Below are positions 3,131 to 60,772 of a DNA stretch of 64,000 bases, in pieces. Where the stretch lies: the NCBI GenBank assembly GCA_022705945.1, contig JAKJDL010000008.1, positions 642 through 64,641 of the forward strand, in the 5' to 3' direction. The position numbers and the translations under genes were made by a program. Each line of letters starts with the position of its first letter. Position 1 is the first letter of the stretch. This DNA comes from Candidatus Omnitrophota bacterium (GTDB taxonomy: Bacteria > Omnitrophota > Omnitrophia > Omnitrophales > Aquincolibacteriaceae). The notes beneath the pieces are model-generated. The model saw nothing but the letters and a program-made list of their open reading frames with translations. It was not told the DNA's origin and did no database searches.

Positions 3131-3263
3131 CGGAAAGACTTGCCCAGAGGCAGAGAAGGCCTCAGGTTTCCCGGAGGATTTTTATTCTCCCTTCCCTGCC
3201 GAGATGTTACACTAACCGCCTTCCCAAAGCATTTTGACACCTGAATTGAAGGAGGACATTCTG

Positions 3264-4013: not shown

Positions 4014-4033
4014 CCCGGGTCTCGCGATCTGTT

Positions 4034-4090
4034 AAAGCGGGACGCCCGGGCAAGTACCGGGAGAAAAGTCCCGAGTCTCTTTTTTTTAGG
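4034..4090 (+). terminator. Candidate rho-independent terminator after gpmA
   Basis: GC stem cgggac...gtcccg followed by the T-run tctcttttttttt, about 20-70 nt after the gpmA stop. Confidence 0.4.
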
Positions 4091-4275
4091 AGAAATTGTA
4101 CCGGTCTTCCGACGGAGATCATAAGCGCGACGGGCAAATTCTCTAGCCGGTTCCTTGACAATCCTCCGGATAAAACGGCTGTTTTTGCGGTGAGATTTAT
4201 TTTCTGACTTGCGGTTGTTTTTCTGCTGACCAAACAGGACTTCCTGCTTCCGGAGATTCCGAAGCCCTCCGTGCC

Positions 4276-5421: not shown

Positions 5422-5544
5422 GGGAAGATTATACTCCCGATGTCGGTCACAAAACCACAACGGCACAAGGCCGCAAGGGCGACGTCCGGCGGGAAATGGG
5501 CTGGTTTTTTCCGTCGGTCCCGGTAATCGGTTTCGGAACCCCTT

Positions 5545-6441: not shown

Positions 6442-6450
6442 GTTTTGTCC

Positions 6451-42300: not shown

Positions 42301-45300
42301 GATAGGTCATCGTCGCCGATTCCGGATCGGTCTGGCCCGTAAGCCATTCGAACTCTTTCTGCCCGTAAAATTGTCCCCAGGCCTTTGACTCGCCTCCGTC
42401 AATGCCGGGATATTTCGGTTCGCCCAGATTCAGCGCAACGATATACCTGTCCGCGCCTTCCTGAACGGCAAACCCCGCCAGGCTTTTATTCATGGAACCG
42501 AACCGCCGTCCGTTGGTTTCAAGATAGAAGAAGAGGTTCTGCCGAAACAGGTCGTTCTTGAAAAGCGATTCATACTCTTTGCTGCGGGAATGAATATACC
42601 CCTTCAGGACATTCCCCGATAACGTGACAACAAAGCTGTCCAGGAGCCGGAGCGCCGCAAGGTTGGCTTTCACTTTTTCCAGAAGATCCGTAGCAGCCTC
42701 CGCCCGGGACTTCAGGCGGAGCATTTCCTTATAAAGATCCGGTATCTCTCTCTCGAATCCCTCGAGATAACGGAATATCCTGGCGAAGATATCCTCCTTG
42801 CCGGCGTGATACGCCACCGAACGGTAACCGTCCGCGGCATGAGTTCGTATTCGGCGCGCGCTTTCAACAAAGGCGAGCGGTCCCGGGGGAGCGATCTCAA
42901 GCGCGTTGGGAGATTCATTTCTCCAGACGAATCCGGTATCATCGCCCGCTCTTTGGGAAAGAAACCTCAGAGCGCTTTCGGGAGAAAGCCCCGGCTTTTC
43001 CAGCAGGGCTTTTTCCTCTCCGGATTTTACGACTGTCCTCTGCCAAAGTTTTATGTGCGCCCGCGCCTGGCTTTTTTCCATATCCGCGACGGGAGAGGAC
43101 CGGAGAGCTTTCCATATGAGATCCCGACGCGACGAAGATAACCGGTAGCGTTCCCGGAGTTCGGCAAGGGCACCGGCCAGAGAATCCGCGGACGGCGGAC
43201 GCGCGTTCACGGTCTGAATCTTTCCGTCCACAACGGTATTGAGAACGAACTTGCCGTCGCCCGCCGCGGCGTATTCCACCAGAAAACCATTGGTGATCTT
43301 CCAGGCGCCGGCGTGAAGTTTTCCGGCAAGCTCCTCATAGGTAACATGCTCTTTGAAGATATTCACTTCGCGGCCGGTCGCAGATTCTGTGATTGTGAAC
43401 AGTTCCGGCTCCGCGCCGCCCCAAACGCCGATCAGGGCCGCGCCATTCGGAAGCCCCTTCATCATGCTGGTGGCCGAAGCTTCCAGGATTTCATAAGAAA
43501 GCATTACGCTCGCGGAGATCCCCTGGAAAATAACCGGCGCGACTTCAATGTTGTAGTTCTCGATCGTCGCAAATTTATCTTCAAGGCCAAGCTCCCGCAC
43601 CAAATCCTGGATCTCCAGAAACAAGCCGTGCGCATCTTTGCCGAACTCGCGCCCGCCTATGACCGCCCGGGCAGCGTTCTTCTTGTACCATTCCAGCCTT
43701 GCCGGGTCAGCCTTGAGCGCCCGGAGAACCTCGATCCATTTGTCCGGTCCCTTGTAGGAAACCTGGCGTCGCACGTTGGAAACGATCGGAGTCTTGAGAA
43801 ATTCCCGGCTAAGCGCCTGAACCCTGCGATCCGCCAAAAGCGCGGCCCATTCGTTTTCATTTTCAAGCGCGCCCCGGATACGGCGGTTGAGATCCGCCAG
43901 AAGCCGGTCGCCATAAACCTCCGTGAGCCCGAACTCTTCCCGATACGCTTTCATTGCCTGATCGAACCATGCGGGACGGTTTTGACTTTCTTTAAGCCAC
44001 AGCATCAACCGACCGGTCAAAAAGGCTTTAATGACCTCTGTTCTCTCCTTAAATTCACTCAGAAGAAGTGCCTGGGCAGGTTCGCTGAGCTTCGCAAAGA
44101 GGACCCTGTCATCCGATGCGGGGTCCATCCCGAGCTTCTTTTTATAGCTGTCGGTCAATCCCCGAAGGAGCGGTGACTGCCACTGTTCGAGCAGGACCCC
44201 GTTCGTGCTCCGGAGCCCGTCCTCGTTGTAGCTGTCCACCACATCGGCATAGCCGGGCATCACGCCGCCCGTGACGGCAGGCGTGTGTTCATACAAGGCG
44301 ACCCCGGTAACAAGGTCAAATGTCATCCCCGCCGCATCCGTGACACTGATCTTTCCGTTCCGGACGATATAGGGCCGCAGTGCCCTAGAATATCCCAGCA
44401 CCTCCAGAGAAGCCTCTTCAGGCTGATAGATCGTCGGCGTGAAGACAGAGTGGTTTATGTGATGGTGAAGCGCGTCCGGCAGAAGAGGCGTCGGCAAGCT
44501 GACAAAAACCTCATTGTCCACAAAGAGAATCTTCTTCTTGGCCACTCCTTGCTCCTGAAGTTTCAACGTCAGAAGCTCGGTAACTTTCCGGTAAACCCCC
44601 ATTTGCAGGTCGCGCCAAAGATTGGGGGCTCCATAAGGAGCATCGGGATAAACCTCGTCGAAGATCTGGACCTTCTTTCCATAATCATCAATGTAAAAAG
44701 CCTCGATATAAAAATTCGGCATACCCCCGACCGAAGTCTCGGTCGGATAAACCTTGACCCTGATCTCGCGGTCAACCGCTTCCCGGGCTTGCTGGAGTCG
44801 TTTCCTGTATAAAGCATCGCCGGTCCGGCTGATCCACTCGTCGGCTTTCGTGCGAAACTCATCGCCGGCATCCAGAGAGAAACTCAGCCGAAATCCCGGA
44901 TCTTCGGTCAGAACTTCGCGAAGATAATCCCCCAGCGTCTTTTTGCCGCTCACCACCTCTTCCGGAAGGTCTTTGGCGTAAGCCTGCCCCTTGATCTCGT
45001 CATAGATCACGTTCACGGCAAAGACATCTATGTTCTTTTTTTTCGGAGCTCCAAAATTCTTTTGCCAGGAGGGGAAAAGATCGTGCATCAGGGCTCCTAG
45101 GCCTCCGGTCATCGTAGTGGCCGCGACCAGTCCCGCGATCTCTTCGCCGAACTTCGCTTTAAGCTTTTCCAAAATATCACGCGACAACCCGGCCTCAAGC
45201 TGGCGGGAAATGACAGTATAATTCCCAAGTTCCGGGGCATTCTTCGTCGCCCAGGAGCGCATCTCGGAGCGGGAAGATCTTGAAAAAGCGACGGCGAGTA

Positions 45301-48300
45301 CAGCGGCTCCGCCGACAGGTCCGGAAAAATCGGCGAATCCCATCACCGGTGAGGCATGTTTTTTCATCAAGCCGTCCCGCCTGCTCGGCGCGTATCCCTT
45401 GTCAATCCCCGCTTCGCGGACCTCCGACCGGCCCAGGGCCGATAGGGCGCTTTCGATACGCACTAACCGGGGTTCTTCTTTCCGGGCCTTTTCAAGCTGT
45501 TCCAGAAGATAGCGCCGGGTCTCTTCATCGATCTTGGCGAGCGATCTTAAATGCTTTGTGAGTAACGCCCTGACCAAAGACTCTCTCCGTGAGGACCGGA
45601 TGGCCCGAACAACATGGTCGACCGCTTCCCTGGCAGTATAGCCGGCTTTCATCAGCTCATCCGCGGGATCTTTTTGCTTCCGTGCCCTGTGGATCGCGGA
45701 AGCCACTTCCAGGGTCCGGATCTCGGGGACCGGCTCCTCGCCAAGGACATTCATCCATCCGCTCATGTACCGGTTGCGCGCCACATCGATCCATCGCGCG
45801 TCCTGCGTCAACAGCTGATATTGCACTTCCCGCCACGCGGGACGGTCATACCGGTAAACGTCATACATTTTCATTAGCGAACTCAACCAGTAAACGGGGT
45901 TAAAAACCTTGAACCCTTCCGTCAGTTCCCCGCGGGTGACCAGCTTGTCCGCCAGTCCATCCACGTCCCGGAGATGACGCATGATCCCGTTGGCCGCAGC
46001 CTCTTTATCGCTAAGACCGCACGGTTCAAAGGTAGACGGCATATCGAACAGGTCCGAACCGCCATAGATCAAATCGTACATTTCCTCGGTCGTTTTGATG
46101 AAACTCGGCCGGAAATAAACCCGTCCGGAGAAAAGGGACGCAATTTCATTAAATCCTTTTTCGTAGCTGGAGCCCTTTTCCACGCTCCCGGCCACCACAA
46201 ACCGCACATCCGGATGAAGAATGAGCATCACGTCCAGGGCTCTCAAAGCCTCCATCCCGTGCTCTTTGGCAAATTCCCTGAGCGTCCGGGCCTGGGCTTC
46301 CGTCAGCTGGATCCGCACATCCGGATCCGCAAAAAGGTTCCGCATCGGAACCGCCTGCTCGTTGATATTGCCGGACAAACGGAACGGAGGATGCTGCGGG
46401 TTGAGACGCAGACCGTTTGGATCCCTGACCGTCCAGACTTCGGCAAGGAGCAGGTGATGTCCCTTTTGCATGTCGATCCGGTGGAGCATGGAATGCACAA
46501 AAACACGGTCCGGGTCCCCCGCCAGACCTGTCTTCTCCAGCAAAACGCGCCGGGCGACCGGCTGAAGATAATCCAGGACCACTTTCGCGAGCATCCGGCG
46601 ATCACGCTCGTGACCGATCTCCATGAAACTTTTGACAAATCTCGAGGGGTTCCTGACCACCTTCCCAAGATATTCCCGGAACCCTTCCATGCCCGGCTCC
46701 CAGTCCGGGTTTTTCAGATCTGATCGCATTTTTTCAAGCACTCGGGCATCATGAAACCAGCGGTGCAGGAAATCCCTCTGCTGGGTAACAACCTCGATAC
46801 CGTTCGGAATTCCGGTATATCGCCCAAGGCTGTCCTTGTATTGAAGCTCACCGGTCAATCCTCCGAATTCGTTCCAGTAATCATTGTCCAGGCTACGGTC
46901 GTGATACCCTTTCGATACCGTTACGGCCAGGTCCGATGTCTTGAGCGCCGTGAAGCTCGGATTGATGATTCCCCAAATCCCCGGAGCGAAAAGGACATCC
47001 CAGTCTTCCTGTGCGCTTAGTCCGAGGTCATGATAGACCATGGCATTACGCCGGCGTGTTTGTTCGTCGGTAAGGTGTTTTGTCTTCCAATCGTTGCTGA
47101 TATAAACCCAACCCTGATAATCCCGGTGAAGGTTATGGAATATCGAGGTAACGCGGGTTCGGCGAAAGTGCGGGTCCCGCTTCAGGTCTTTCAGCGCGGG
47201 AGCAATGCGGTCCCGGCCTTCCAGGTAAGCTTTCAGGTAGGCCGACGGCCAGTCATTGGTCTGGATGACATCAGGGTGGATGTTCGCCTCGCGAAGAGCA
47301 AGAAGAGCTCCGAGCGAAAGCGCCCTGGCGAATCGAAGCTTGAAGTTGTCCGCCCCGTGATACCCGCTGGGGTCTCCGGACCATCTGCCTCGCAGTCTCG
47401 GAAAAACCGTGTCGTTCATCAGCCCAAGGACCCGGACCCCCCTGATCTTGGTCTTGAAAATCATCAGGTCCTCGTACTGAACGGTTCCGCCGTTATCATA
47501 CGGAACCGGCGCCACGCGCCCTGTGTCTCTGAACCCGTATTGCTTAATCACATCCGCTTTGTTGTGGGAATAGATCGGGGCAACCAGCGTGACATTTACG
47601 CCAAGATGGGCCAACGTCAACGCCAGCTCCGAAACGGCCTTGGCCAGCCCGCCCGTTCCTTCGGTCCACAGGCTTTCGGGACTCACGAGCACCACTTCGC
47701 CGACGGAAGAACTCTGAAGAACCTTGATGGCATCTTCGCTCATTGCGGGATCGCTTTCCTGGTCTTCGACCGCCATACTGACGAGGAACTCACGGATCTC
47801 GTCCTTAAGCTCCGGTTTCAGAACCATAACGTCCCGGAAAACCATCGCGAGGTTCCCCAGATCCAGCCGGCCGCCCGAGGCGCGGATAATCCCGGAAAAT
47901 AACCGGAAAAGCGTCTTGAACTCACGATAACCGCTTTCAAACGCCCTGACGATCTCCCCGGAGACAAAACTATACCTGAACCTGTCCTCAACGCCGTAGC
48001 GGCGGTAGCGCTGAAGCGAATCCTTCAGAAGTTCACGGTAACCGGGCTCACCGGCAAGAGGTAATTTTCCCGAGATTTTCCGAAGGTGATAGATTTTTAT
48101 TTTACCGGACCGGAGAGGATCACGCGGGCCCAGCCCCAAATGCCGCATGGCATTCCCGGTCAGGATCAAAGGTTCCCCCGGATTGCGTACATTTACAGAA
48201 ATGTCCTCACTGTCATGGACCTTGATGAACTCAAACACATCTTCGGGCTGAACTAACAGGATTTTTTCTTTTTCCCCGAAAACCCGTTCCGGAATAAAGT

Positions 48301-51300
48301 TGATGTCGGCGGCAGACGGAGCGCCGGTATGTTCCAGCATGAGAAGAAACCCGTCGCCGCCAAGCTGAAGGGCATGAGCGCGCACCCGGCTATGTCCGAC
48401 ATCCAACGGAATGATGCCGCTTCCGGCTTCAACATCAAGCCGGCGGGCGGCCATCCGGTCGACCGTTTCTTGAAGCTCTTCCTCCGTCACTCCCCCCCGA
48501 ACTTCCGAGCGAAGGGAAAGACTTTCATCTTTTGCACCGACCCGTAATTCGGTACGCATGCCAGAGTTTGCGGCATCTCGATCCACGGGGTGGGGGGCGG
48601 CCGGATCGCGGGACATAAGCGGCAGGCTCCCGGCATAAACATCCCCCGTACCAAAATCCACGGTCAAAAGATCCCCTTCACGTAACTGCCCTCCCCCGAG
48701 CATCACGCTTCCGTCCCGGAGGACGTTAAGACCCTGCACGCTGACCACGGTGGGAATTTTGTCGTAGTTGGCTACCACCGCGGCATGCGAACTCAAACCT
48801 CCCTGGGAGGTTAAAAGCATGAGTCTTTTCCCGACGGTCCCGAGTATGCGATTGGCATTAATAAGGTCCGGAGTATCTTCGGGCGTCGGGAAAGCGCTGA
48901 CAAGAATCAAGGCTTCCACCCCTTTCTGCCTGGCCACGCGTTCCACCAAATCCCCCCGGAGTATTTCGGAGGATTTCAGCGCAACCATCCCCCGCAAGGC
49001 CCCCTCGTTCCCGTAGGCGACATTGCCGTGTCCTTCCGGAATCTGAGAAATTCTTTCGCGGTCCAAAAGCGGAAAGTTTTCCGTATTCCCGACCCTGTGA
49101 TCACTGCCCGTTTGGAGGAGGTACAGTTTTTTGTTTTCAACGGTGAACTCCACCATTTGGGGAACGCCAAAATATTCGGCCAGAAGATTGGTGCCCGCTT
49201 TTAACTTCTCATAAATCTCGGGGTTTATGCGCTGTAAGGATCCGATCGGCTCTGTTTTGCCGCGCCCCTGCATGAGATTCATGCCTCCCGAAGAAAAAAC
49301 AACGTCCCCGCCAAAGGACAGTTCACCCGAGTGAGGATCGTGAGACGTGGCAACCCCCGCGCCGGAATGTTCGTTCAGATCCCCAAAAACATAGGCCTGC
49401 ACGATCACAGGTGTTGACCATGCGTCTGAAATGTTTTTTTCTTTCCGATAGCGACTCGCCTTGGAGTTTCCCCAAGATTCGAAAGTCTTCTCGATCAAAA
49501 AATAAAGTTGTTGGTTCGGGTCCCGGTATAAAGTTTCAAACCTCTCTTTCACACCGTAACGCTCCATGATCCCATAGGCTTCCTGCACCATTTCAGAAAG
49601 ATCCGACTCCCGAAGCTCTCTCCATTTCAGGTTTTTACCATCCCCAAGGAACCGGTTCATCAAAGCTTCAAATTCGTCGTGAGGAACACCCAAACTCGTG
49701 GCCATTGATTCCACAAAACCGAGAAAGGCCCTGTAACCGGATTGAACTCCTCTTGTTTCCAGAACATACTCCAGAATTTCGGGAGTGAACCCCACCGCCA
49801 CGGCCGTTTCAAAAATCCCCGGCATGATAAAGACGGCTCCGGACCGGACCGCGAGAAAAAGAGGTTCGCCATCCTCTTTAAACAGAGGGGTCGGGGCCAT
49901 GCCATAGCGAACGGGGTGCCCCTTCTTCTTGGACCATTCTTCTTCGAGTCTTCGAAGGTGTTCTTGAACGGCTACCTGGAACTGCTCCGGAAATTGTTCG
50001 TAAAAACGATACCGCCCGACATAGGAGGGGATCACAAAAGCGCTCGGAACCGGAAGGCCCAAGGCGTCCATTTCCCCCAAATAGCATCCTTTTCCGCCAT
50101 AGGTCTTTCGTTTGTGCGGCTGGTGGTTAAACCGGGGATCACCGATGTGAGCGATCTCCCCGAACGGTTCCTTTGCTTTTTGCTTGATAAAGTTCCGGTG
50201 CGCCTCGGGGTTGACCGGTTTATCGGGATTCTGGTTCGCCTGGAGCTGCGCTTTGTTTTTAAGTTGTTCGAGAAGATTAATGGCGGCCACCGAGAAGAAT
50301 TTTTCTTTGCGGATCAGGGCAATGGCACGCTCATGCCTCTCATGGTCTTCGCCGTAAAGGGATTTCCCGGCCAAATGATATTGAGAAATCCATCGGGAAA
50401 ACTCCTGCTGGATTCCTCTTTGCATGACATTGATCACATCCAGAAGTTGGCTATAACTCAGCTCCGAATCATTCAGAAGGTCGGACCACTGAGCCGTGTA
50501 CCTTGTGATGAATCCGCTGTCAAACAGTTCATCGGTCAGTTCCGCCATCAGCATCAGCGCATCCCGAAAATCGGCATCGGTTTCTCCCCATTCTTGCAGA
50601 AAAGCTCCGAGCGACAAATTCAACATTTGTCCCAGAGAACGGTCAATCACATAGAGCTCATGCACAAGCCGAGGGTCATTCGCGTTTTCCAGAATTTCTG
50701 TGACCGTCCGCCGCGCGGCAATGATTTGCCTTGTCTTCTCAAAAGGAGATTGCTCATAAGCATCCACAACAAGCTGCAACGCCTTTTCCAGGGAGGGAAG
50801 CTCCTTTACGGTTTGGGTCTGAAGCCAACGTCCGAAAAGGTCGGGTCTGGAAGTCCCTTCAAAAAGGGCGACCAGAGCCTGCTCCAATTTTTTTACATTA
50901 GAATAAATTTCGTTCTCATTCCGTTCGTCATTCGTCATGGAAGCCAGCTCTGCCCGAAGCTCTCGTTCCCGATCGTGTAAAAAGATCCACTCCCGCTGGA
51001 TCGCGCTCTCGTCGCCTGTGCTCAAAAACTCCAGAAAAGCCTGGACTTTGGGGAGCACTTCGTAAGAGAAAGAAGGCCCGTGGAGGGTTTCGCGGATTTT
51101 CATTGAGAACTGGGTGTGGATCAATAATCGCTCGTCCAGGTCTTCTGCTATTCCCCATAGCACGCTATAGAGGTTAAAAAAGGTATCTGCTGCCGCCGAG
51201 TAGGGCAACGAAAGCACAAGCTCTTTAACAGGGCGTCTCAGGGGTTTTGGGGTTTTGGCAAGAAGCTGCGCAGCAAGGTGTCCGGCCTGTTCGGCAAGAT

Positions 51301-54300
51301 CGCTGGGATACTGATCATAATCGCGTGAATGGTTGAGGCGAAGCGTTTTTTTCTTTTCTCTCAAAAGGAGACTCAGCTGGAAGATCAGATCCAGGTTGGC
51401 GGTCAGGTCCCCCTGCTCCAGAATCCACCGGATCGCCGCAAATGCATCGCCCCAGGTCTTGATTCCCCGAATGTCCGGCATATCTTCCCGCGCTTCCGAG
51501 CGGATAGCCGCACCGCCGTGTGAAACGGTTTTGAGGAATTCGCCGAGAGGCATCCCGGATTCCAGGGAAAGGTTTTCCGGGAGAGCGGCGCCGGTCGCTC
51601 TCGAGATCCATCCGGCAAAAACCCTTTGGATTATAATTTTTTTCCCGGGGTGAAAACCTCCTGGCCCGGACAGCTTCCCGAGAATGTTGATCAATTGCAG
51701 GGCTGCCTTTTTCTGTTTTACGGCGTCTTGAAAAATCTCCCGGGGCGTCTCGACAAGAAGCCAGCCTTCCGGTTTGTGCGCATCTCCGCCTCCCATCGCG
51801 AAAAGGATACCGGCCTCGTGCTCTTTCTTGTCCGCTTCCGCATAATTTGCCTTCCGGGCATGAATCAGACCCGGCTTTATTTCAATACCGGACTCATCGT
51901 GAGCATGCGTGTACGTGGAAAAGCCCGCTCCCCTGAGAAGAAGGATGCTCAAGGGATTGGCTTGAAGATGCATCCTGTTCGCCCCATCCATCCGGACGCT
52001 GAAGCTGACGCTCCTGTTTTCCTCTTGCTCTTCGGCCGAAAGGGCCCTATCCGTATTCAGCTCGATCATGGCCTGCACGGGAGTTATCGTGCCCAGGCGT
52101 TTCTTAATGCGTCTCAAGATCTCCTGGCTGATTCTGAGCTGGATACTGCGGTCAAATTTATAAGGATCAATCCACTGATACCGGACAAACTCATGAAATG
52201 TTTTCCCCGCCGGCGGCTCGCTATCGGTCCCCGTAACCTCATTTGTCCCGGCATAGAAACAGAGCATCTTCCAGGCCATGAGCGCTTCGTCCGAAGAAGG
52301 ATCATCCTTGGCGATCTCAAAATAGACCCGCACGATCTCCTGCATATGTTTTTCGAGCTCCGCCTGGCCGCAGATCAAAAACTCCGTCCCTTTCTCTTCA
52401 GAAAGCTGAAACCCTTTTTCTTTTAGATAGGTAACGGCGATCCTGCGCCCTAAAAGCTCGCGAAGATTTTGAAGGTCCTTCGAGAGGCGTCTCTTCTCAT
52501 AACCCGGATCGTCCGTCAAATATTTCAACCGGAAATACATATCGATCTCGGCACCCGTCAACGACCGGACCATCCAGCGGTTGTCTTTTATCGTAACGGC
52601 TCCATGTCTGTCGTTAGAGCGGATCGATTTCATCGTTTTTTCCGAGGACGTTCCCGGGGCAAGAAGCCACTGATAAAATTTTTCGCGAGTTTCGGAACGC
52701 CGTGCTGAACTATATGGCAAAGACTCTGCCGCCGCGGAGACAAAAGCTCCGGAGGCGAAAGCCCGGACCTCGGAACGCCCTGATATCTTTTTACACATTT
52801 CAATAAGCGCTGTCGTCGACTGGTCATGACCGGTGACCTCGGCACCGGCCGGAAGCTGGGGAAGGATATTTTTGGCAAGCAATTTCCCTAGCTGAACACC
52901 CCACTGATCAAAGCTATAGACATTCCAGATCACCCCCTGGACGAAGATCTTGTGCTCATACATCGCAATAAGAGCGCCAAGAACCCTCGGCGTCAACTTC
53001 CTAAAAAGGAAAGTATTGGTGGGATGATTCCCTTCAAAGACTTTATGCGGAGCAAGCTTTTTAGCTTCTTCCGGCGTTTTTCCGTCACGAAGAAGCTGCT
53101 GATACGCCTCCTCGCGGGTCTGGCCCGACATGAGAGCCTCGGTTTGGGCGATGGCATTCGCGATTAATTTATCCTGGTGATCTCCCAACGGATAATGGCT
53201 TGAAGCCGCCAGCAAAAAGTCCGCCGGGATCAGCTTGGTCCCCTGGTGGATCAACTGGAAGAAAGCGTGCTGCCCGTTGGTGCCGGGCTCCCCCCAGATA
53301 ACAGGGCCCGTTTGCCAGCGCACGCGCTTGCCGTCCCGGGTAACGGTCTTGCCGTTGCTTTCCATATCCGCTTGCTGCAGATAGGCTGGAAGACGACGGA
53401 GCGACTGGCTGTAAGGAAGTATCGCGTAGGTTTGGGCGCCAAAAAAATTGTTGTACCAGATCCCGAAAAGCGCCAATAGCACGGGGAGATTTTCTTTCAA
53501 AGGCGCCTTCCGGAAATGTTCATCCATGTCATAGGCGCCCCGGAGAAGCTCCTCGTAATTATCATATCCGATGAAACAGGCAACCGACAATCCGACGGCA
53601 GACCAGAGAGAATAACGCCCGCCGACATAATCCCAGAAGCGGAACATGTTCCGGGTATCGATCCCGAAACCCGTGACCCTTTCTTCCGACGTTGAAACCG
53701 CCACAAAATGCCTCGCGACAAACGAGGGATCCCCGGCTTTTTCCAGAAACCACTCCTTCGCGGTCGCGGCATTCGTAAGGGTTTCCTGGGTGTCGAATTG
53801 TTTCGAGGCGATAATGAAAAGCGTCGTTTCGGGATCAAGCCCTTCCAGCGTCTCCGCAATATGCGTTCCGTCCACGTTCGAAACGAAATGCACGCGAAGA
53901 TCTGGACGCGCCTGGTAGGGCTTGAGAGCTTCCGCCGCCATCATCGGCCCGAGGTCCGAGCCTCCGATCCCTATATTCACGATATCCGTGATGGGCTTGC
54001 CCGTGTACCCCTTCCACCGGCCGGAAATGATCTTCTCGGAAAAATCCTTCATCTGCCTCCGGACTTTCCGGATCTCCGGCATCACATCACGGCCGTCCAG
54101 CATCACAGGCCGGTCTGAAAAGTTCCGGAGCGCGGTGTGAAGCACGGCCCGCCCTTCGGTCCCGTTGATCCTCGCGCCTTCAAACATCATCCGGATCGCA
54201 CGCGGCACTTCCGTTTCCTCCGCAAGCCGAAGAAACTCCTCAACAACATTGTCCGTCAAGCGGTTCTTTGAAAGATCGGCAATGATTTCTTCGCCGTTTC

Positions 54301-57300
54301 CGAGAACGACCTCATGCGTATATTTTTCCGCCCGGCGGGGATCAAGGGAAAAGATGTTTCTCAGATGCAGCTTGCGAACATCCCTGAAAATTTTCTTGAG
54401 CGACCTCCAGGCTTCCGTTTCGGTCGGATCATAACTCGGGAACACCTCGCCTGAAGAAAAATCCTTCTTTCCCGCGGGAATCTCGGAACGGGCTTCGGAG
54501 CGGGCCGCCGAAGATGCTTCAAGTTCATTCTCAAGCAGAGCGGTATCATTCCAGCGAAACGCTCTTCCGTTGATCACGATTTCGCGTTTTCCCTGAGACC
54601 TTGCCTTGACATTGCTTGTGGCGAGACCTTCCAGAAGCTCGCCCCGGCTTGTCGCAAAGAAATTCTTTCCGTCGATCATGACACCGATCTTTCGCGCGTT
54701 CACTTTCCAAACGATCACTTTGCGTGTCTCGGAGCGGGAAACAACAAGATCCGGGAACCATGCGTGGAATTCACCTTCCGTATATTCCCCGGCGGGGTCC
54801 CTGGCCCAAACATCCATATCTTCCGGCGCGGTTAAATGGATGAAATTTCTTCGCACATCAAGTCGTCGCCCTGTCAGACCGAGCGCGGGATCATTCCGGA
54901 AAGCGCGGGCACGCAAACTGTCGGGGTGCTTTACTGCAGCGTCTTTCGGGTCCGTTTCACCTGCAAATTCATCCTTCATCTGCTGGAGCGTAGACGCATC
55001 CGCCGCAAAAGGGTCCTTCTTGAGCCAGATCGCAATGGTAGGCGTTTCGGCCCCGGTAAAATCTTCGGCAAGTGCGGGAAAAAATGCGTTGTAAGCGGGG
55101 ACTGTTTTTCCGCGATAGGCTACCGGAATATAGTCTTCGTCAGGCAAAGAGAGAAGCCCGATGCGAAAAGCCCTGGGACCCTTTCCAAGCTTTTTGACCT
55201 TGCTCATTCCAAAAGGCGCATCCCAAATACTTGCCAGATGTTCCGGCGACAAGCCTGTTTTTTCCATAAGTTCGTTCGCCGAAAACGCAAGCTGGTCCCC
55301 GGGAACAATTTCTTTTGAAAAATCAAGAACCGCCAGATGCTCTTTGACCGCAGTCCGCTCCTCGTCGTTCAAGGCCTTGTCTCCCAGGGTGGCGACTGCC
55401 GCGTGACGAGAATAATGTTCCCCGAGAACATCTTCCCCGCGAATAGTCCCGGCATCCACCACGCGAACGGCATTGGCGAAATAACCGCGTTTTCCGGCCG
55501 CGCCGAGAACCTCGACGATCGTTTTTTCCGTGATCGTCCCGACAGAAGGCTTAATCAAAAGCACGAGGCTGTCTTTCATATCAGGGTCCTGAAGGCGACG
55601 GCCATTCCCGAAATCCACATAGCCGGTCGTTCCCTCCTTATACAATGCGAACGCTTCAGCTGCGATCTTCTCGGCTGTTCGCATTTCGGAACGGTGCTTT
55701 CCGGTCATTATCTGAAACACCGCCAGCCGGGCATTTGGAATATCAAGAGGTAAAACCCGCTTCTTCCCGGACATCCGGGAACTCATTCCGCTTACGGTAA
55801 CCCCCAAGACTCCCGCGCCCGCGCTTCTCAGTTTGTTCAAAAATTCCGGGATTTTCCGGCCCGAACGGGTTTCCGAGCCGGCAGCCGCAGTATCCGTTCT
55901 TGTTTCCGAACGCGCCCAGTCGGTCAGAATGGAACTTAACGCCTTGACATGATCCCCCGTCACAACATAAGACAAACCGCCGCCGTGGGGATTGATCGTC
56001 GCCATCATCGGTTTTTCAAAAACCCCGGCAATCACGCCGTCTGCTTTCATTTGATCCAGAACGTCTTTAGACTTCACCGCACTCTGAGAGTTCGTCCAAA
56101 AAACCACCGGAGTCTGAAACCCGTTCCGGTCAAGCGCCCGCCACATGCTCTCATGCCACCGCGCTTGATCACGACGTCCCGCATAGTCATCAAAACCGGC
56201 CAGAACCAGGTCGAAGGGACGGCTCGCCAGCGCCAGCCAGAGATCTTCCCGCTGAAAAGAAAGGTCGATCGTTTCAATCGTCGCGGCCGGGCTGATAGCC
56301 TGGGCCAGCTGGCGAAGCGACGTTGCGCCGGCTTTTGTATCCGCAACAAGAATTCTTTTGATCCACGGGAACGCATCCATCGAAAGCGGTGTTATATTTT
56401 TCGCCTCCTCTTTTCCTTTTTCGGAAGCCGAGCTGTCACCGCCCTCGCGCGCTTCACTGCGGGTGAGGCCGGTGTCCGGAATGATTTCGATCCATTCAAC
56501 GTTACTGATATCCGGGATCCTCGCTTGCCGGCTCAGCTCATCCACGGTCACAAAACCAAGAACTTCCTTATAAGCTCCTACTGTGATCTGATAAGTGATC
56601 TCCCGGTGCCGAGGACGCACCAGGACAAGGGTCCCATGAAGCGCTTCCTCAGTAACGCCTTGCGCCTTGAGGAAATCCGAGATTTTTCCGCGGCTATCTC
56701 CGATCAACTCTTTCGAAAAGCGCCGTGTCGGAACTTCCGGACGACCTTGTCCGGTCCTGAAGATCTCATCCTCTCCCCTTGTTTCCGAGCGGACAACCGG
56801 AGCTTTTATTCTGGTCAAAAAGTCCTGTGCGGAAAAAAGCCCGTTGGCGCCCTTGCGGCCTCCGGACACAAGCGGCTCCGACAGGAACCGTCCCGCGGTT
56901 TTTCTCACTCCTTGATCCGGATGATTCCTCGCGACGGCTCTGAGCCGGGCACGCACCATTGCCTCGCTTACCTTCTCCCCGCGAACCTCCGAGCGACCGT
57001 CAACCAAACTCCCGCCGTCTCCGCGGCTTAGATCCAAACGCTTCGGACTGCCCGGCGCCCGCAGTGCTTTCCGTGAAGGTCGTGGGGGAGCTTTTTGCCG
57101 AAGTCGAATTTTATCGATTGTCCGCAGCAATTCGCTCCTCTCGGCTTCCGAACCGTTTACTTTTAAAACTTCCCGCTCCGCCGCGTCCAAGGCTTGACGG
57201 ATTCTGGGATCTTCCTGCAGCCCCTCCATTTCGCGGACAACGTCCGTTGCCTCAGACCACTTCCGAGCACCTGCCTGCCTGTCAAGCGCCTTGACCAGCC

Positions 57301-60300
57301 TGGGTATTTCGATGCGGTCTCTGAAAAAACCCCCGACAGAAGCGGGCATTCTGTTGCGGGAAAACTGAACGGAAAACAAAATGAGGGCTCCTGCGGCCAG
57401 GAATCCGGCCCAGCGGAGTCTCCGGTTGGGAGCGTCCTTTCGTGACGGGATCCCGCCGAGAATGGCTTCTATGGAATAGACCAGCAGAGGTCCCGTCAAA
57501 GCAAGCATCCATGCACCATCATGATGCATCCCGGCCCTCGAAACATGGGGGCTAAAAAAGACCCTTATCGCAAAGAACACGACGGCGGCAGCGCTATAGG
57601 TCAATCCGAAAAAAGCGCTGATCCCTATCACCGGATCCCTCTCTTCCGGCTGCTCGTCCGGAACGGGCGGCATGTCCGGCCATTGAATGACGGGCGCGGC
57701 TTCTTTCCGGGCTTTCAACAGATCGGCAAGAATCCAGGGGGTCATTATCGGCGAAAAAAGAATCCCTATCATCTTCAAAAATCCGGGGACAAACAAAGCG
57801 CTCAAAAAAACAATCCCCGCACTGAAAAAATAGGCTCTTAGCACATTCACGACAAAGGGGTACTGCGAGGCATACCAGGGGAAAAGGAACAAGCCCGCGA
57901 GGCCAAGAAACAGCGCGGCACCTCCCAGATAGGCAATCCCTCCTTCCGTATCCAGCTTTTTCTCCGAGGTCATGAAAAATGACGGCATGAAAAAAAACGC
58001 CAGAAGAACCGCTACGCCGAGAGCAATTCGTTTTTTAAACACTCTGTCCCTCTGGGACGGCGAAGAAGCGGCAACCTCCCGAAGCGTCGGGCCATAATCA
58101 ATGAGACCGCTCCCCAGGAGACCCTGATCGAACAAGGGATCCTTGATCGGGTCCGCATGGCGACGGATAACATTCAAAATTTCCAGGGTTGAAAGATTTG
58201 GATTAAACTCCAGGATCCGCGCGATCATCCCTGCGACCCGGGCCGAAGCAATCGATGTCCCCGCAACCTCAAACGAAGTTACTGAAAAAAAGTTGTTTTC
58301 TTGCAGAAAGTCGCGTCCGGAGGCACAGATATGAACGTGGGACCCGAAATTCGAACGAGCCTCCTTTCCGCGCGGCGTTGCATCGCCGACGCCGATCACG
58401 CCGTCAAACGCCGCCGGGAAATTAGGGTTGCCGTCCGGAATGTTCCCGGCCGCCGCCACCAGGATCGCCCCCGCGTCCGCAAGCCGGCCTATCAAGATCT
58501 TCTCCTCTTCGGTATAAAACTTTCCGCCAAAACTCATGTTCACGACAACGCGTCGGTCAGGATTTGCCTTCATAAAATCCAAAACCGTTCCGAGGGCCTT
58601 GTAATAGCGACCGATGTCGACTTGCCCGGACACCGGGTTGACTACAGCGATTGAAATCACTTCAGCGCTAGGCGTCGATTGCCTGAGCACTTTGGCCACG
58701 ATGCTCCCATGATCCACTCGGGTTTCCTCGTCCCCGCGGACAGGGCCTTCCACAAAAGAGCTTTTTATGCCCGTGTCGAGTACAAAAACAGCAACGAGGT
58801 CCTTCTGCGATGCGGCGACAACCTGCATGGGTAAACCGGTCAACGCCGCAGCCAAGACTACCATTCTGAAAATCCTTAAAAAACTCCCTGACATTTCCGC
58901 AAAGGGCCGGGTTCTTCCGGAACGAGTACGCGTCTCGGCCCGCGAGGCGGTGCCGTCTCCGCCTTTCCAGATGCTACGCTCGACTTCCGGTTGCCGGGCA
59001 GTAGCGGATACGGGAAGGGCGCTCCGCGCGGAAACTAAAAACTGCTGTTGCAGATACCGCTGCCCGACTTCCGCAAGAAATTGCGCGTCGCTTCTAAGGG
59101 GCGGCGCCTGCTGGCTTCGTGCGATATCGCTTCCGAGAAGCACGTTCAGATAGTTTTTCCGGTCATCGATGCCTGCCTTGCCGATCTGCGGCGTGATACC
59201 GATATATGTTGCGCCGGAAGCGGTGATTTTTTCTTTCAAACCGTCCGTGTGAAATCCTCCGGTCACAAGTACCGCTCGCGGTTTTTTTGACGATTTAAGC
59301 CGGGCGAGGGAATTGCGGAACATGATGTCCTCGCGCTCGATAGCAGCCGCATAGAAATCGAGCGCTTTCTGAAAAAGCACCCTGATTTCCCGCGCGGAAC
59401 TCGCCTCCCGGCCGTTGGGCCGGGTCCCGAGTCCCCTGACAAGTTTTTCGGGAGTTATTCCCCGCGATTTGACTTGCTGATATTCTTCCCGGCTCAGTTC
59501 GAGATTAAAAAGTTTCCTCAAAAGCCGGTATTCGCGGAGCGCGGCGGCAAGGCGCTTTTCTTCCGGTGTCACAGCGAGTTTTTCGATGATCAGCTTCGTA
59601 AGCGATTCGATCTCTTTCCGGAGCGCGTCGCCCCCGATCTCCGACATGAGGATGATCTGCTGGATGTACAAGCGGAGGTTCGGATAGGGATCGAACGAGA
59701 AATCGGGCGGAAGGGCGTCGAGCAGGCGCTCGAAAACAAAGCGAGTTTTATAAACCGGGAGATCGTGTTTCGCGGCAGATTCGAAAATTTGCTCAATCTC
59801 TCTCAAAAGGGTCTCGGAACCCGTCGCCCGGGACTCGTTTTGATTTCTCGTTTTTCGATCCCCTGGTTCCGAGGAACTGGTTTCAAGTTTTTGGATAGCA
59901 TTCAAAAATTCCTGTTTCTCCTTCTCAACCTTCGCCGCGTCGATCTTCCCGCCGATCTTTCCCAACCGGAAATAACGGACAAGAACAGGCCAGTCCGTTT
60001 GAGCACGAACGTCCTTGAGATCGACAGGTGCATTTTCATCCGTCGTCCGCCCTCCGTCATTCCATACCGGGTTTTTAAAGGCCGCTGTCTTCAGCACCTC
60101 CAGCCAATCCCCGAGCGGAAGGCGCTCTTCATCGAAATCGGTATAACGGATGAGAAATTCGCGGAGATCTTTATTGAGGGAGATGCCGGCCTGCTTTTGC
60201 CATGCAATGCGTTTGGCGGACAAAAATTTCGAAATTGTTTTGCGGCTCTGATAGACCTTGCGAAATGCGTCGAGACCGGCGCGATACGCTGCGGCTTCTT

Positions 60301-60772
60301 CAACTCCGTAGCCTTTCATGGCGCCGGCCGATTCCATTAAATAAGCTTCCGCTCCGGTAAGTTCGGCAACGCGCAGCAGCCGGTCGTTGATGGTGCGGCG
60401 GAGTTCGGCGTCTCCTCCCGAAAGGTCTATCGAATCGGGACGGAGCTCATAACCTGCGCCCTCCAGATAAACTTCCTTGATATTATAATTTTCACTGAGG
60501 AACCGCAGGATGTCCCTGATGTTCTTCTGGGCATCATAATTGGCGTGAGCTTCCTGGACATGAAGAAGAACCGGAGCGTTCGGACTGCCGAAAATGATCT
60601 CGTGAACTTTGCCTAGCTCGGCCGGAATCTCGAAGTTCTGGACCTGGTTTGCGTGAGCCAGCACTTCCGTCGCGGCATAAGCAAGAGGAGACGGAGTGAG
60701 GGTGTTGGTCGTAAAAAAAGTAACGGCAATCAACCCGGCCAGAAGTCTTTTGATCTTCTTTGAGTAGCTCAT
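39305..60772 (-). CDS. Giant multidomain secreted/membrane polyprotein-like protein (7155 aa): signal peptide, shared N-domain, S8 subtilisin, TM block, receiver-like domain, phosphoglucose isomerase, PPDK-type dikinase module, GT5 glycogen synthase, GT35-like glucan phosphorylase and further unassigned modules
   Basis: Single uninterrupted 21,468-nt ORF. GAGG RBS upstream of the ATG at 60772. Signal peptide [33 protein letters not shown]. Domain motifs are listed in the sub-features below. Confidence 0.85.
43553..45175 (-). other. Alpha-glucan phosphorylase (GT35)-like module, aa about 5200-5740
   Basis: [41 protein letters not shown] resembles the GGLGxLAGD...LxGVGLLY N-terminal block of bacterial/archaeal alpha-glucan phosphorylases. 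Weaker than the other calls. Confidence 0.45.
45923..47701 (-). other. Glycogen/starch synthase (GT5)-like module, aa about 4358-4950
   Basis: [40 protein letters not shown] (the KTGGL-type ADP-glucose motif) ... [10 protein letters not shown] ... [34 protein letters not shown] (the PSRFEPCGL...GGLADTV block). Confidence 0.75.
48638..50110 (-). other. PPDK/PEP-synthase-type nucleotide-binding domain plus phospho-histidine swivel domain, without a PEP/pyruvate TIM barrel (dikinase-like), aa about 3555-4045
   Basis: [25 protein letters not shown]; [25 protein letters not shown]; [31 protein letters not shown] (PPDK_N blocks); then [25 protein letters not shown] (PEP-utilising His domain). No PEP-binding barrel is recognisable afterwards. 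Confidence 0.7.
52853..54400 (-). other. Complete glucose-6-phosphate isomerase (PGI) module, aa about 2125-2640
   Basis: [94 protein letters not shown] and [15 protein letters not shown] are the conserved PGI blocks, in order. Confidence 0.85.
56003..56359 (-). other. CheY-like receiver-type domain (possibly degenerate), aa about 1472-1590
   Basis: [11 protein letters not shown]...[10 protein letters not shown]...[10 protein letters not shown]...GVFEKP mirrors the receiver beta-strand/Asp/Thr/Lys layout. The acidic pocket is partly substituted. Confidence 0.35.
57338..58030 (-). other. Multi-pass transmembrane block (about 6-8 helices), aa about 915-1145
   Basis: Consecutive about 20-aa hydrophobic stretches ([18 protein letters not shown]; [20 protein letters not shown]; [19 protein letters not shown]; [21 protein letters not shown]; [22 protein letters not shown]; [15 protein letters not shown]). 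Confidence 0.65.
58088..58810 (-). other. Subtilisin-like serine protease (peptidase S8) module, aa about 655-895
   Basis: Catalytic-triad motifs in order: Asp in [10 protein letters not shown], His in VDHGSIVA, oxyanion Asn in NMSFGG, and Ser in [11 protein letters not shown]. Confidence 0.8.
59138..60595 (-). other. Shared N-terminal domain (copy 1 of 3), aa about 60-545 of the giant protein
   Basis: [22 protein letters not shown] and [29 protein letters not shown], conserved with the 2359-aa and 729-aa paralogs. Confidence 0.7.

What the first reader, a model, noticed from the sequence alone, without database searches (positions are those of the whole stretch)
57338..58810. Topological puzzle: extracytoplasmic-type S8 protease followed by a 6-8-helix membrane block, then about 6000 aa of cytosolic-type enzymes
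The signal peptide plus subtilisin implies the N-terminal about 900 aa are exported. The multi-pass block would then leave the bulk, which needs sugar-phosphate and nucleotide substrates, in the cytoplasm. That gives a roughly 650-kDa cytoplasmic assembly tethered to the membrane with a periplasmic protease head. If instead the whole chain is exported, PGI and glycogen synthase would be operating outside the cell or inside another cell.
Basis: inference. Interest (0 to 1): 0.65.

Follow-up and report, generated by a model that had tools for sequence, protein, structure and literature searches.

The report
Membrane subtilase module inside bacterial polyprotein
The flagged stretch is a complete secreted, membrane-anchored protease gene fused into a 7,155-residue open reading frame of an Omnitrophota bacterium, whose roughly 19 pieces are separated by a repeated five-residue motif (R-S-E-x-R) that probably marks where the giant chain is cut into ordinary proteins.

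Summary
Window 57338-58810 is aa 655-1145 of a 7,155-aa ORF (39305-60772, minus strand). It holds an intact S8 subtilase (D666/H688/N777/S840) followed by seven hydrophobic helices (aa 916-1139). About 6,000 aa of cytosolic-type enzymes follow: PGI, a PPDK-like dikinase, glycogen synthase and a GT35-like phosphorylase.

Stand-alone homologues (signal peptide or lipobox, S8, five helices, helical tail) and their loop charges place S8 outside and the C-terminus inside.

- a second, internal signal peptide (aa 627-655) directly before S8;
- the motif R-[S/A]-E-x-R, which occurs 18 times (about 1 expected), only between domains, and is kept at protein level;
- a paralogous 2,359-aa ORF in the window and giant ORFs in eleven Omnitrophota loci that use the same motif, including complete ORFs with no membrane block.

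Natural N-termini and canonical signal peptides sit just after the motif. My best reading is a polyprotein precursor cut in the cytoplasm, with the S8 block as one cargo module, not a 650-kDa tethered machine. Cleavage is inferred, not shown, and the protease is unknown.

The topology puzzle is already discussed for Omnitrophota giant proteins. The papers I could search do not describe the junction motif.

The parts
39305..60772 (-). Giant ORF of 7,155 aa (the stop codon is included in the coordinates). It is a polyprotein-like chain of 19 segments.
60671..60772 (-). N-terminal Sec-type signal peptide, aa 1-34 ([19 protein letters not shown]|A). It is conserved in all orthologues.
58943..60670 (-). 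Conserved first module (N-domain, aa 35-610). It is found in all related giant ORFs and is encoded as a separate gene in L005. It shows weak Tiki/ChaN/erythromycin-esterase-like signals only.
58928..58942 (-). First junction motif, RAETR (aa 611-615).
58808..58927 (-). Start of module 2 (aa 616-655): an Arg-rich n-region plus an internal signal peptide or signal anchor ([24 protein letters not shown]|S). It corresponds to the N-terminal signal of stand-alone homologues.
58058..58807 (-). Subtilase S8 catalytic domain, aa 656-905 (D666, H688, N777, S840). No I9 propeptide was detected.
57356..58057 (-). Polytopic membrane anchor, aa 906-1139, with seven helices (916-934, 946-964, 977-995, 998-1019, 1051-1073, 1087-1108, 1119-1139). 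Five are conserved in the family and two are extra.
56996..57355 (-). Soluble helical tail of module 2 (aa 1140-1259), predicted to be cytoplasmic. It stands in the place of the HEAT-like tail of stand-alone homologues.
56981..56995 (-). Junction motif RSEVR (aa 1260-1264), which closes module 2.
39308..56980 (-). Modules 3-19 (aa 1265-7155), delimited by 16 further junction motifs and predicted to be cytoplasmic cargo. They include PGI (2096-2670), a PPDK-like dikinase (3096-4077), a glycogen-synthase-like module (4093-5119), a GT35-like module (5173-6467) and the conserved last module (6916-7155).
15497..22576 (-). Paralogous 2,359-aa ORF with the same plan: a signal-like N-terminus, a paralogue of the N-domain, cargo separated by five R[S/A]ExR motifs (a PP2C domain and a weak methyltransferase-like match), and a similar last module.

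Best explanation
The flagged stretch is module 2 of a polyprotein-like giant ORF from an Omnitrophota bacterium.

Module 2 (aa 616-1264) is a full copy of a widespread stand-alone gene type: a signal peptide, a compact subtilase without propeptide, a polytopic anchor, and a short cytoplasmic helical tail. Its own internal signal (aa 627-655) takes the protease domain across the inner membrane. Seven helices then bring the chain back, so everything downstream is cytoplasmic. This part is supported by comparison with the family.

The whole ORF consists of ordinary proteins joined end to end by the motif R-[S/A]-E-x-R: cytosolic enzymes, small proteins, one secreted first module and one membrane protease. 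I infer that this motif is an endoproteolytic processing site used on the cytoplasmic side, before or during membrane targeting. On that reading the ORF is a precursor for about a dozen separate proteins plus short spacers. That would resemble a flavivirus polyprotein, where internal signal sequences serve the exported parts and a cytosolic protease cuts at basic sites.

The S8 module is then cargo. It sits on the wrong side of the membrane to cut 17 of the 18 sites. At most it could cut the first one, and only if the N-domain and S8 are exported together. The processing protease is unidentified.
For: Topology:
- S8 is intact, and seven helices are seen by hydropathy and by AlphaFold2.
- Stand-alone homologues carry SPase I, lipobox or Tat signals before S8 and five conserved helices after it. 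Positive charge sits on alternate short loops and on the post-helix-5 flank.
- The spacing from signal to S8 is the same as in the homologues.

Junction motif:
- RSExR occurs 15 times in the window ORF against 0.2 expected. The relaxed [RK][STA]ExR pattern gave 18 hits (all R[S/A/T]ExR) against 1.2 expected.
- Over 13 related proteins (52,795 aa) RSExR occurs 106 times against 1.3 expected, while the permuted controls RESxR and ESRxR occur 0 and 1 times.
- Codons vary between TCN and AGY for Ser and between CGN and AGR for Arg, so selection acts on the peptide, not on a DNA repeat.
- No motif lies inside any of the seven Pfam domains checked.
- The PGI module matches the NCBIfam profile at positions 5-541 of 544, and the next motif begins 4 residues after that match ends.
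- The motif is kept at the same module borders in P0065, L008 and L012 although the flanking sequence diverges.

Independence of the modules:
- 15 of 43 hydrophobic-segment clusters start within 35 aa after a motif, against 4.1 +/- 1.9 in 2,000 randomisations, none of which reached 15.
- Examples are 'RSELR-SFR-LLMLAGMVAIASFWTAV-SAKA|Q' (L013) and a Tat-like 'RRRFLGAAALG' 22 aa after a motif (L007). Rossmann N-termini 'KIAVIGTGFVG' lie 12-24 aa after a motif.
- The window's internal signal has seven Arg and two Glu in the 26 residues before it, starting at the RAETR motif. That fits a cytoplasmic or free N-side, not an exported upstream domain.
- P0065 has 'RSETR-ELIDLMVMPAMVLGVIGIATFISRHWKRTHNLKKNR', an N-out/C-in anchor that makes sense only with a free N-terminus.
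- The complete orthologues L012 (3,718 aa) and L008 (3,744 aa) have the N-terminal signal, no convincing other membrane segment, and an NAD-dependent UDP-glucose dehydrogenase or a SAM methyltransferase.
- In L005 the N-domain ends at a real stop codon, and the next giant ORF is in another frame.
- Stand-alone S8-anchor genes lie among ordinary genes, not next to giant ORFs.
Against: - There is no direct evidence of cleavage: no proteomics and no N-terminal data.
- No candidate cytoplasmic protease was found in the ORF or in the window.
- The membrane block has only moderate model confidence (pLDDT 50-66), and three of the seven helices are marginal by hydrophobicity.
- In the window copy, the loop between helices 6 and 7 and the flank before helix 1 are positively charged although the model puts them outside.
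- No dedicated topology or signal-peptide predictor (DeepTMHMM, SignalP) could be run. My hydropathy scales are crude, and one of them was written from memory.
- The motif could instead be a docking, phosphorylation or plain linker motif.
- Some hydrophobic segments counted are Rossmann strands, not membrane segments. They still mark natural N-termini.
- The L005 split could be an assembly frameshift.
Confidence: 0.55

Rival explanations
1. The chain stays in one piece: a periplasmic N-domain plus S8 head, a seven-helix anchor, and a roughly 650-kDa cytoplasmic multi-enzyme arm for glycogen and hexose-phosphate metabolism. RSExR is then only a conserved linker, or a docking or phosphorylation motif.
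For: The orientation is supported. The internal signal is only weakly hydrophobic (crude sum +4.2, similar to the N-terminal signal at +4.9), so it might pass through Sec without stopping. A 2026 preprint reads the sugar-metabolism content of Omnitrophota giant proteins as compatible with an inner-membrane-anchored protein whose bulk lies on the cytoplasmic face. The paralogous ORF carries a PP2C phosphatase, and every motif has a Ser or Ala at position 2.
Against: Seven Arg directly before the internal signal would have to cross the membrane. Orthologues without any anchor have the same signal and cofactor-dependent cargo. Canonical cleavable signals, and an N-out anchor that needs a free N-terminus, sit right after motifs. 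Spacers of 15-78 aa bounded by two motifs make little sense as linkers. Module content differs freely between orthologues.
Confidence: 0.25
2. The chain, or most of it, is exported and acts outside the cell or inside a prey or host cell, as a MARTX-like autoprocessing carrier. The conserved first and last modules would serve delivery, and the exported S8 would cut at RSExR to release the enzymes.
For: All family members share an N-terminal signal and conserved first and last modules around variable cargo. Omnitrophota are proposed predators or parasites, and their giant proteins are mostly predicted to be extracellular. MARTX toxins give a precedent for protease-released cargo. From my own knowledge, Chlamydia secretes glycogen enzymes.
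Against: In the window ORF the odd helix count puts the cargo in the cytoplasm. The cargo includes enzymes that need NAD, SAM or ATP, a receiver-like module and a PP2C domain. The PGI scores as a bona fide housekeeping equivalog. Internal signal peptides after motifs would be pointless in a chain that is already exported. No RTX repeats, C80 protease or type I secretion signal were detected.
Confidence: 0.1
3. Artefact: the ORF is a mis-assembly or pseudogene, or the hydrophobic block is not membrane-spanning.
For: The source is a metagenome-assembled genome. pLDDT over the helices is low.
Against: The same gene appears in an independent assembly. Orthologous giant ORFs occur in 11 loci from other metagenome-assembled genomes. 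The frame is open for 21 kb and selection on the motif acts at protein level. The hydrophobic segments are conserved, with alternating loop charge, across 37 homologues.
Confidence: 0.03

Closest known systems
Giant multi-enzyme ORFs of Omnitrophota: the 'Archaeovorins' of West-Roberts et al. 2023 (bioRxiv 10.1101/2023.11.21.568195) and the 'multi-enzyme metabolic cluster' class of bioRxiv 10.64898/2026.06.07.730766
   Same: The phylum matches: eleven loci with orthologous ORFs lie in Omnitrophota or unclassified MAGs. The domain repertoire matches too: an S8 peptidase near the N-terminus, transmembrane helices, GT5, GT1, PGI and a pyruvate-phosphate-dikinase-like domain. Those papers raise the same open question, namely whether glycolytic domains are inside or outside and whether the chain is cleaved.
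   Different: At 7,155 aa this ORF is far below their size thresholds (>30,000 aa and >=10,000 aa). Those papers state that cleavage points are unknown and do not mention junction motifs or functional internal signal peptides. One of them suppresses signal-peptide calls on later chunks of its chunked >100-kAA proteins as artefacts. Here the module borders are explicit.
Flavivirus-type polyprotein processing (textbook knowledge, not tested here)
   Same: One chain carries internal signal sequences for the parts that cross the membrane. The inferred cytosolic cuts lie at short basic motifs between functional proteins.
   Different: This is a cellular bacterial genome, not a virus, and the cargo is metabolic enzymes. 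No protease has been assigned, and cleavage has not been shown.
MARTX toxins (PMC4453568, PMC6315884)
   Same: A very long single chain has conserved end regions around variable cargo modules, and in MARTX the cargo is released by proteolysis between modules.
   Different: No RTX repeats and no C80 cysteine protease domain were found. The cargo here is predicted to be cytoplasmic and housekeeping-like, and a Sec-type N-terminal signal replaces a C-terminal type I secretion signal.
Membrane-anchored exported subtilases such as mycosins of type VII secretion (TIGR03921)
   Same: An S8 domain is exported by an N-terminal signal and held by C-terminal membrane helices.
   Different: The score is 54 bits against a cut-off of 279, so this is not a mycosin. 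It has 5-7 helices plus a cytoplasmic helical tail instead of one anchor helix.

Membership tests
Peptidase S8 (subtilases) | Match to the family profile above the curated threshold | tested here: met
   PF00082 scores 59.1 bits against a cut-off of 21.8, E 5.6e-16. PDB subtilisins match at E down to 9e-16.
Peptidase S8 (subtilases) | Catalytic triad in the order Asp-His-Ser, plus an oxyanion Asn | tested here: met
   D666 (DTG), H688 (HGS), N777 (AAGN) and S840 (GTS). All four are invariant in the 38-sequence alignment.
Classical secreted subtilisins | N-terminal I9 propeptide acting as a folding chaperone | tested here: not met
   There is no Pfam hit between the internal signal and S8, and only about 6 residues separate the predicted signal cleavage site from the first strand.
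Unnamed stand-alone family: signal, S8, polytopic anchor, helical tail (P0008-P0036 and others) | A signal directly before S8, at least five hydrophobic helices after it, and a soluble helical tail | tested here: met
   The segment at aa 627-655 is signal-like. Seven helices follow S8, five of which align with the family's hydrophobic segments. The tail (aa 1140-1259) is shorter than in most members.
Omnitrophota giant multi-enzyme ORFs ('Archaeovorin'-type) | Omnitrophota origin and the domain set GT5, GT1, glycolytic enzymes, PPDK-like domain, N-terminal peptidase and TM helices | tested here: met
   Orthologues occur in 11 loci: eight are titled Omnitrophota or Omnitrophica, two 'uncultured bacterium' and one 'uncultured Planctomycetales bacterium'. 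Domains are, and the published descriptions. I did not see the organism name of the window's own assembly.
Omnitrophota giant multi-enzyme ORFs ('Archaeovorin'-type) | Size criterion of the papers (>90 kb gene, or >=10,000 aa) | tested here: not met
   The ORF has 7,155 aa.
MARTX toxins | Glycine-rich RTX repeats and an InsP6-activated C80 cysteine protease domain | tested here: not met
   No such Pfam or NCBIfam hits were found anywhere in the ORF.
Kexin/furin proprotein convertases (S8B) | A P-domain after the catalytic domain, and cleavage after basic residues | tested here: not met
   No P-domain hit was found; membrane helices follow S8 directly. Specificity cannot be tested with these tools.
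Proteolytically processed polyprotein (functional class) | Demonstrated cleavage at the junctions into separate mature proteins | not testable with these tools
   Only indirect evidence is available: motif enrichment, natural termini, and signals after motifs.
Tiki / ChaN / erythromycin-esterase superfamily (for the N-domain, aa 35-610) | A significant profile or fold match | tested here: inconclusive
   PF04187 matches 2 of 7 family members, best E 0.0046, and does not match the window copy. The top Foldseek PDB hits include 2rad/3b55 and EreC, but at E 0.26-1.4 on a model with pLDDT 66.

The most novel reading that the evidence does not exclude
Some Omnitrophota replace operons by cellular polyproteins. 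Sets of ordinary proteins (cytosolic enzymes, regulators, secreted proteins and membrane proteins that keep their own signal peptides) would be translated as one chain. The chain would then be cut at a lineage-specific junction motif, R-[S/A]-E-x-R in this lineage and SSSP[V/I/A]-type motifs in others, by a still unidentified cytoplasmic protease. This would supply the cleavage map that the published work on Omnitrophota giant proteins says is missing.
Probability: 0.5. Interest if true: 0.9.

Novelty: new variant of a known kind. Interest (0 to 1): 0.75.

Why it matters
Two preprints and a Nature Microbiology paper leave two questions open about the giant proteins of Omnitrophota: whether they act as single chains or are cut, and on which side of the membrane their metabolic domains lie.

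This 7-kAA relative is small enough to read in full, and it gives an explicit, testable answer. The module borders are marked by a five-residue motif, exported modules keep their own signals, and the membrane block belongs to a single module. The predicted cut sites can be checked directly by N-terminomics or by non-tryptic proteomics.

The same logic, with different motifs, seems to hold in other lineages. It could be used to split the 30-150-kAA proteins into units for structure prediction.

If cleavage is confirmed, this would be a rare case of virus-like polyprotein gene expression for housekeeping metabolism in a cellular organism.

Tried and rejected
- Word-indexed homologue search with aa 601-1180 gave only six weak S8 hits. 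The exhaustive HMMER search was needed to find the family.
- A chance origin of the motif is rejected by shuffles and by permuted-motif controls.
- A DNA-level repeat or mobile-element scar is rejected, because Ser and Arg switch between unrelated codon families.
- S8 as a dedicated partner of giant ORFs is rejected. Two stand-alone homologues sit among ordinary genes, and the four complete orthologous ORFs (L007, L008, L012, L015) showed no S8 active-site serine motif in a regex scan.
- The homologue search with the last module (aa 6916-7155) returned three unannotated short proteins and told nothing.
- A kexin-like acidic S1 pocket was looked for by eye in the segment after AAGN across lineages with different motifs. 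No pattern was seen, and this was not pursued.
- Internal translation starts as an alternative to cleavage were considered. They were not tested formally, because the frame is open throughout and Met is not regularly placed after motifs.
- Literature searches for 'bacterial polyprotein' and for Omnitroph* plus polyprotein found nothing relevant.
Full report
**1. What is at the coordinates**

The window holds a 7,155-codon ORF on the minus strand, 39305..60772. NCBI assembly GCA_002069035.1 (contig MWBP01000003.1) calls the same 7,155-aa gene, and an independent Logan contig carries its 3' end next to the same neighbouring genes.

The finding's coordinates, 57338-58810, correspond to aa 655-1145.

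- **S8 domain.** Pfam places a Peptidase_S8 domain at aa 687-875 (59.1 bits, cut-off 21.8). Solved subtilisins match at E down to 9e-16. The catalytic Asp666, His688 and Ser840 and the oxyanion Asn777 lie in the usual DTG, HGS, GTS and AAGN motifs. They are invariant in an alignment with 37 homologues.
- **Membrane block.** Directly after S8 come seven hydrophobic segments between aa 916 and 1139. AlphaFold2, run with the family alignment, builds seven long helices at the same places: 905-938, 946-963, 965-994, 998-1025, 1047-1079, 1084-1105 and 1117-1139. S8 is modelled with pLDDT >90 and the helices with only 50-66. A crude Hessa-type sum (scale values from memory, used only to rank segments) rates helices 1, 2, 3 and 5 as strong and helices 4, 6 and 7 as marginal.
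- **Downstream.** After aa 1139 no convincing membrane segment occurs.
  - The domains found are a bona fide PGI (NF001211, 806 bits against a cut-off of 492), a glycogen-synthase-like GT5 plus GT1 pair, and a weak GT35 phosphorylase match.
  - There is also a PPDK-like ATP-grasp domain plus a swivelling-His domain, with no PEP/pyruvate domain detected.

**2.

- **(a) A domain and a second signal before S8.**
  - Between the N-terminal signal peptide (aa 1-34, AYA|A) and S8 lies a 575-aa domain.
  - A second signal-like segment follows it: [44 protein letters not shown]|S (aa 611-655).
- **(b) A repeated junction motif.**
  - RSExR occurs 15 times against 0.2 expected from shuffles. The relaxed [RK][STA]ExR pattern gave 18 hits, all R[S/A/T]ExR, against 1.2 expected.
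  - The codons differ between sites: Ser uses TCN or AGY, and Arg uses CGN or AGR. The peptide is under selection, not a DNA repeat.
  - None of the 18 sites lies inside any of the seven Pfam domains checked. They cut the chain into 19 segments of 15 to 1,295 aa.
- **(c) A paralogue in the same window.**
  - The 2,359-aa ORF at 15497..22576 (-) has the same plan. It has a signal-like N-terminus, a paralogue of the N-domain, five R[S/A]ExR motifs, a PP2C domain and a similar last module.

**3. The S8-plus-helices block is a complete stand-alone gene type**

An exhaustive HMMER search with aa 621-1160 found 632 representatives at E <= 1e-10. The best are proteins of 476-679 aa in which S8 starts about 20-40 residues from the N-terminus.

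Their N-termini are classical signal peptides (P0015 VNA|E, P0018 AVA|V) or lipoprotein signals (P0012 LSAC, P0013 LAGC). In giant relatives, the S8 copy is preceded by internal Tat-type signals: P0065 MNRRQFLAG...LGGC, P0088 MSRRNFIG...LQGC, P0112 SRRDFLK, P0119 TRREFLKK. The protease domain of this family is therefore exported.

After S8 the family has five conserved hydrophobic segments. The loops after helices 1 and 3 and the flank after helix 5 are short and net positive (+1.0, +1.1, +2.0). Loops 2-3 and 4-5 are longer and neutral or acidic. This is the pattern expected for S8 outside and the C-terminal helical (HEAT-like) tail inside.

The window copy aligns with these five helices and has two more, so the C-terminus still ends inside.

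Two stand-alone members lie among ordinary genes, not next to giant ORFs.

*Weak points.* In the window copy the flank before helix 1 and the loop between helices 6 and 7 are positively charged although the model puts them outside. No dedicated topology predictor could be run.

**4. The ORF family**

A scan of one genome per species with an N-domain profile returned 11 loci. Eight are titled Omnitrophota or Omnitrophica MAGs, two 'uncultured bacterium' and one 'uncultured Planctomycetales bacterium'.

In the ten loci examined the N-domain opens a giant ORF with 5-14 R[S/A]ExR motifs in the first 3,900 aa or fewer. The first motif that follows the N-domain lies at about aa 579-663.

P0065 (5,675 aa) is a further relative with 19 motifs, mostly RSESR.

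All members examined share the first module and a last module of about 240 aa ending ...YLATARSA. The cargo between them varies.

Over these 13 proteins (52,795 aa) RSExR occurs 106 times against 1.3 expected. The permuted controls RESxR and ESRxR occur 0 and 1 times. Around the motif, small residues are favoured upstream, acidic residues downstream, and an uncharged residue at x.

**5. Evidence that the motif marks ends of independent proteins**

- **PGI.** The PGI module matches the NCBIfam PGI profile at positions 5-541 of 544 over aa 2115-2662. The next motif starts at aa 2666, and the preceding one ends at aa 2095.
- **Conserved borders.** The borders of the GT35-like module carry the motif in the window ORF, P0065, L008 and L012, although the flanking residues differ.
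- **Hydrophobic segments after motifs.** 15 of 43 clusters begin within 35 aa after a motif. Randomised motif positions give 4.1 +/- 1.9, and none of 2,000 trials reached 15.
  - Some of these segments are the first strand of a Rossmann fold, KIAVIGTGFVG. From my own knowledge, this is the very N-terminus of free UDP-glucose dehydrogenases.
  - Others are canonical signals: L013 RSELR-SFR-LLMLAGMVAIASFWTAV-SAKA|Q, L009 ...ARA|Q, and L007 RRRFLGAAALG.
  - P0065 has RSETR-ELIDLMVMPAMVLGVIGIATFISRHWKRTHNLKKNR. This is an N-out/C-in anchor that fits the positive-inside rule only if its N-terminus is free.
- **The window's internal signal.** It has seven Arg and two Glu in the 26 residues before it, which fits a cytoplasmic or free N-side. 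Yet the domain upstream carries an export signal of its own.
- **Orthologues without an anchor.** The complete orthologues L012 (3,718 aa) and L008 (3,744 aa) have the N-terminal signal and no convincing other membrane segment. They carry an NAD-dependent UDP-glucose dehydrogenase or a SAM methyltransferase plus an aldose epimerase. The paradox of an export signal joined to cytosolic enzymes therefore exists in the family without any membrane block. The block cannot be its general solution.
- **A split relative.** In L005 the N-domain ends at a real stop codon, and the following giant ORF (13 motifs in 3,343 aa) is in another frame. This could also be an assembly error.

**6. Mechanism**

*Shown or well supported.*
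- Module 2 is an exported, membrane-anchored subtilase whose chain re-enters the cytoplasm.
- The downstream 6,000 aa have no membrane segment.
- The motif is a selected peptide feature at natural protein borders.

*Inferred.*
- The motif is a processing site used on the cytoplasmic side. Each module then behaves as its own protein. The N-domain and the S8 module would be exported through their own signals, and the enzymes would stay in the cytoplasm.
- The logic resembles flavivirus polyproteins, which combine internal signal sequences with cytosolic cuts at basic sites (textbook knowledge).
- The S8 domain is on the wrong side for 17 of the 18 sites, and it is absent from the four complete orthologous ORFs (by a regex for the active-site serine motif). 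It is therefore probably cargo, not the processing enzyme.

*The protease is unknown.* The N-domain is a lead only. PF04187 (ChaN, Tiki superfamily) hits two of seven members at E 0.0046. The top, non-significant Foldseek hits include erythromycin-esterase-like structures. However, its own signal peptide would put it outside the cell.

**7. Rivals**

It remains possible if the weakly hydrophobic internal signal slips through Sec. It has difficulty with the arginine cluster, with the anchor-less orthologues, and with the short spacers bounded by two motifs.
- **Whole chain exported, MARTX-like.** It fits the conserved end modules and the predatory lifestyle proposed for the phylum. It conflicts with the odd helix count, the cofactor-dependent cargo and the internal signals. 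No RTX or C80 domains were found.
- **Artefact.** It is excluded by independent assemblies and orthologues.

**8. Relation to the literature**

- West-Roberts et al. 2023 describe Omnitrophota giant proteins with N-terminal S8 or C39 peptidases, many helices, GT5, GT1, PGI and PPDK-like domains. They note that glycolytic domains come out as 'extracellular', perhaps through missed helices. They suspect proteolysis and state that cleavage points are unknown.
- A 2026 preprint surveys topology with DeepTMHMM and treats sugar-metabolism content as compatible with a cytoplasmic, membrane-anchored reading. It mentions neither cleavage nor motifs. It suppresses signal-peptide calls on non-first chunks of its chunked >100-kAA proteins as artefacts.
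- Seymour et al. 2023 call the role of the giant ORFs poorly understood.
- I found no paper that describes junction motifs. My access is limited to open literature.

**9. Verdict**

The topology puzzle itself is already known for this phylum. The junction motif, the functional-looking internal signals and the cargo status of the S8 block appear to be new, and they make the cleavage question directly testable. I rate the finding a new variant of a known kind, interest 0.75.

Noticed in passing
window 15497-22576 (-): A second large ORF (2,359 aa) is a paralogue of the same architecture. It has a signal-like N-terminus, a paralogue of the N-domain (FVIHIEEAHG..., DWPQLVRFFRL, ILVTGGFHSGG), five R[S/A]ExR junctions, a PP2C domain, a weak methyltransferase-like match, and a last module ending ...AAYSALSSAA.
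   Followed up: partly
P0120, P0088, P0067, P0119, P0140 (giant or large ORFs that share the S8 module): Other lineages use different repeated junction motifs of the SSSP[V/I/A] or SSSS type. SSSP occurs 7 times in P0120 against 0.05 expected, and SSSS 9 times in P0067 against 0.2 expected. Natural N-termini follow these motifs too: an adenylate-kinase-like P-loop (IIVLFGPPGAGKS) in P0140, and a receiver-domain start and a Tat-lipobox signal (MSRRNFIG...LQGC) in P0088.
   Followed up: partly
L005 721-2469 and 2441-12469 (JGI 3300037129): In one relative the N-domain is a separate 582-aa gene that ends at a TAA stop. The following giant ORF is in another frame and has 13 junction motifs. This is either a real split or an assembly frameshift.
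   Followed up: partly
window 58943-60670 (-), aa 35-610: The conserved first module has weak, non-significant similarity to the Tiki/ChaN/erythromycin-esterase superfamily. PF04187 matches 2 of 7 homologues at E 0.0046. Foldseek's top hits 2rad/3b55 and EreC have E 0.26-1.4. The motifs [12 protein letters not shown] and TGGFHT are conserved.
   Followed up: partly
window 48542-51487 (-), aa 3096-4077: The PPDK-like module has the ATP-binding domain (PPDK_N) and the mobile phospho-His domain, but no PEP/pyruvate-binding domain was detected. It also has an unassigned N-terminal half of about 460 aa. Among glycogen enzymes it might be a glucan or other dikinase rather than PPDK.
   Followed up: no
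window 39308-40027 (-), aa 6916-7155; also the ends of P0065, L008 and L012: A conserved last module of about 240 aa (...YLATARSA) closes the complete ORFs of this family that were read to their ends. It has no Pfam match, and only three short unannotated homologues were found.
   Followed up: partly
window 54488-54721 (-), aa 2018-2095; P0065 aa about 2061-2143: Some short segments bounded by two motifs are conserved small domains rather than spacers. One example is ...VIDGK...ING.AFRWNDT..LE..L..., which is shared with P0065.
   Followed up: no
P0007 (122 aa, 98% identical to aa 637-756): A fragment from another data set matches the internal signal and the start of S8. It has a one-alanine deletion in the h-region and a divergent end, probably a strain variant or a low-quality contig.
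   Followed up: no
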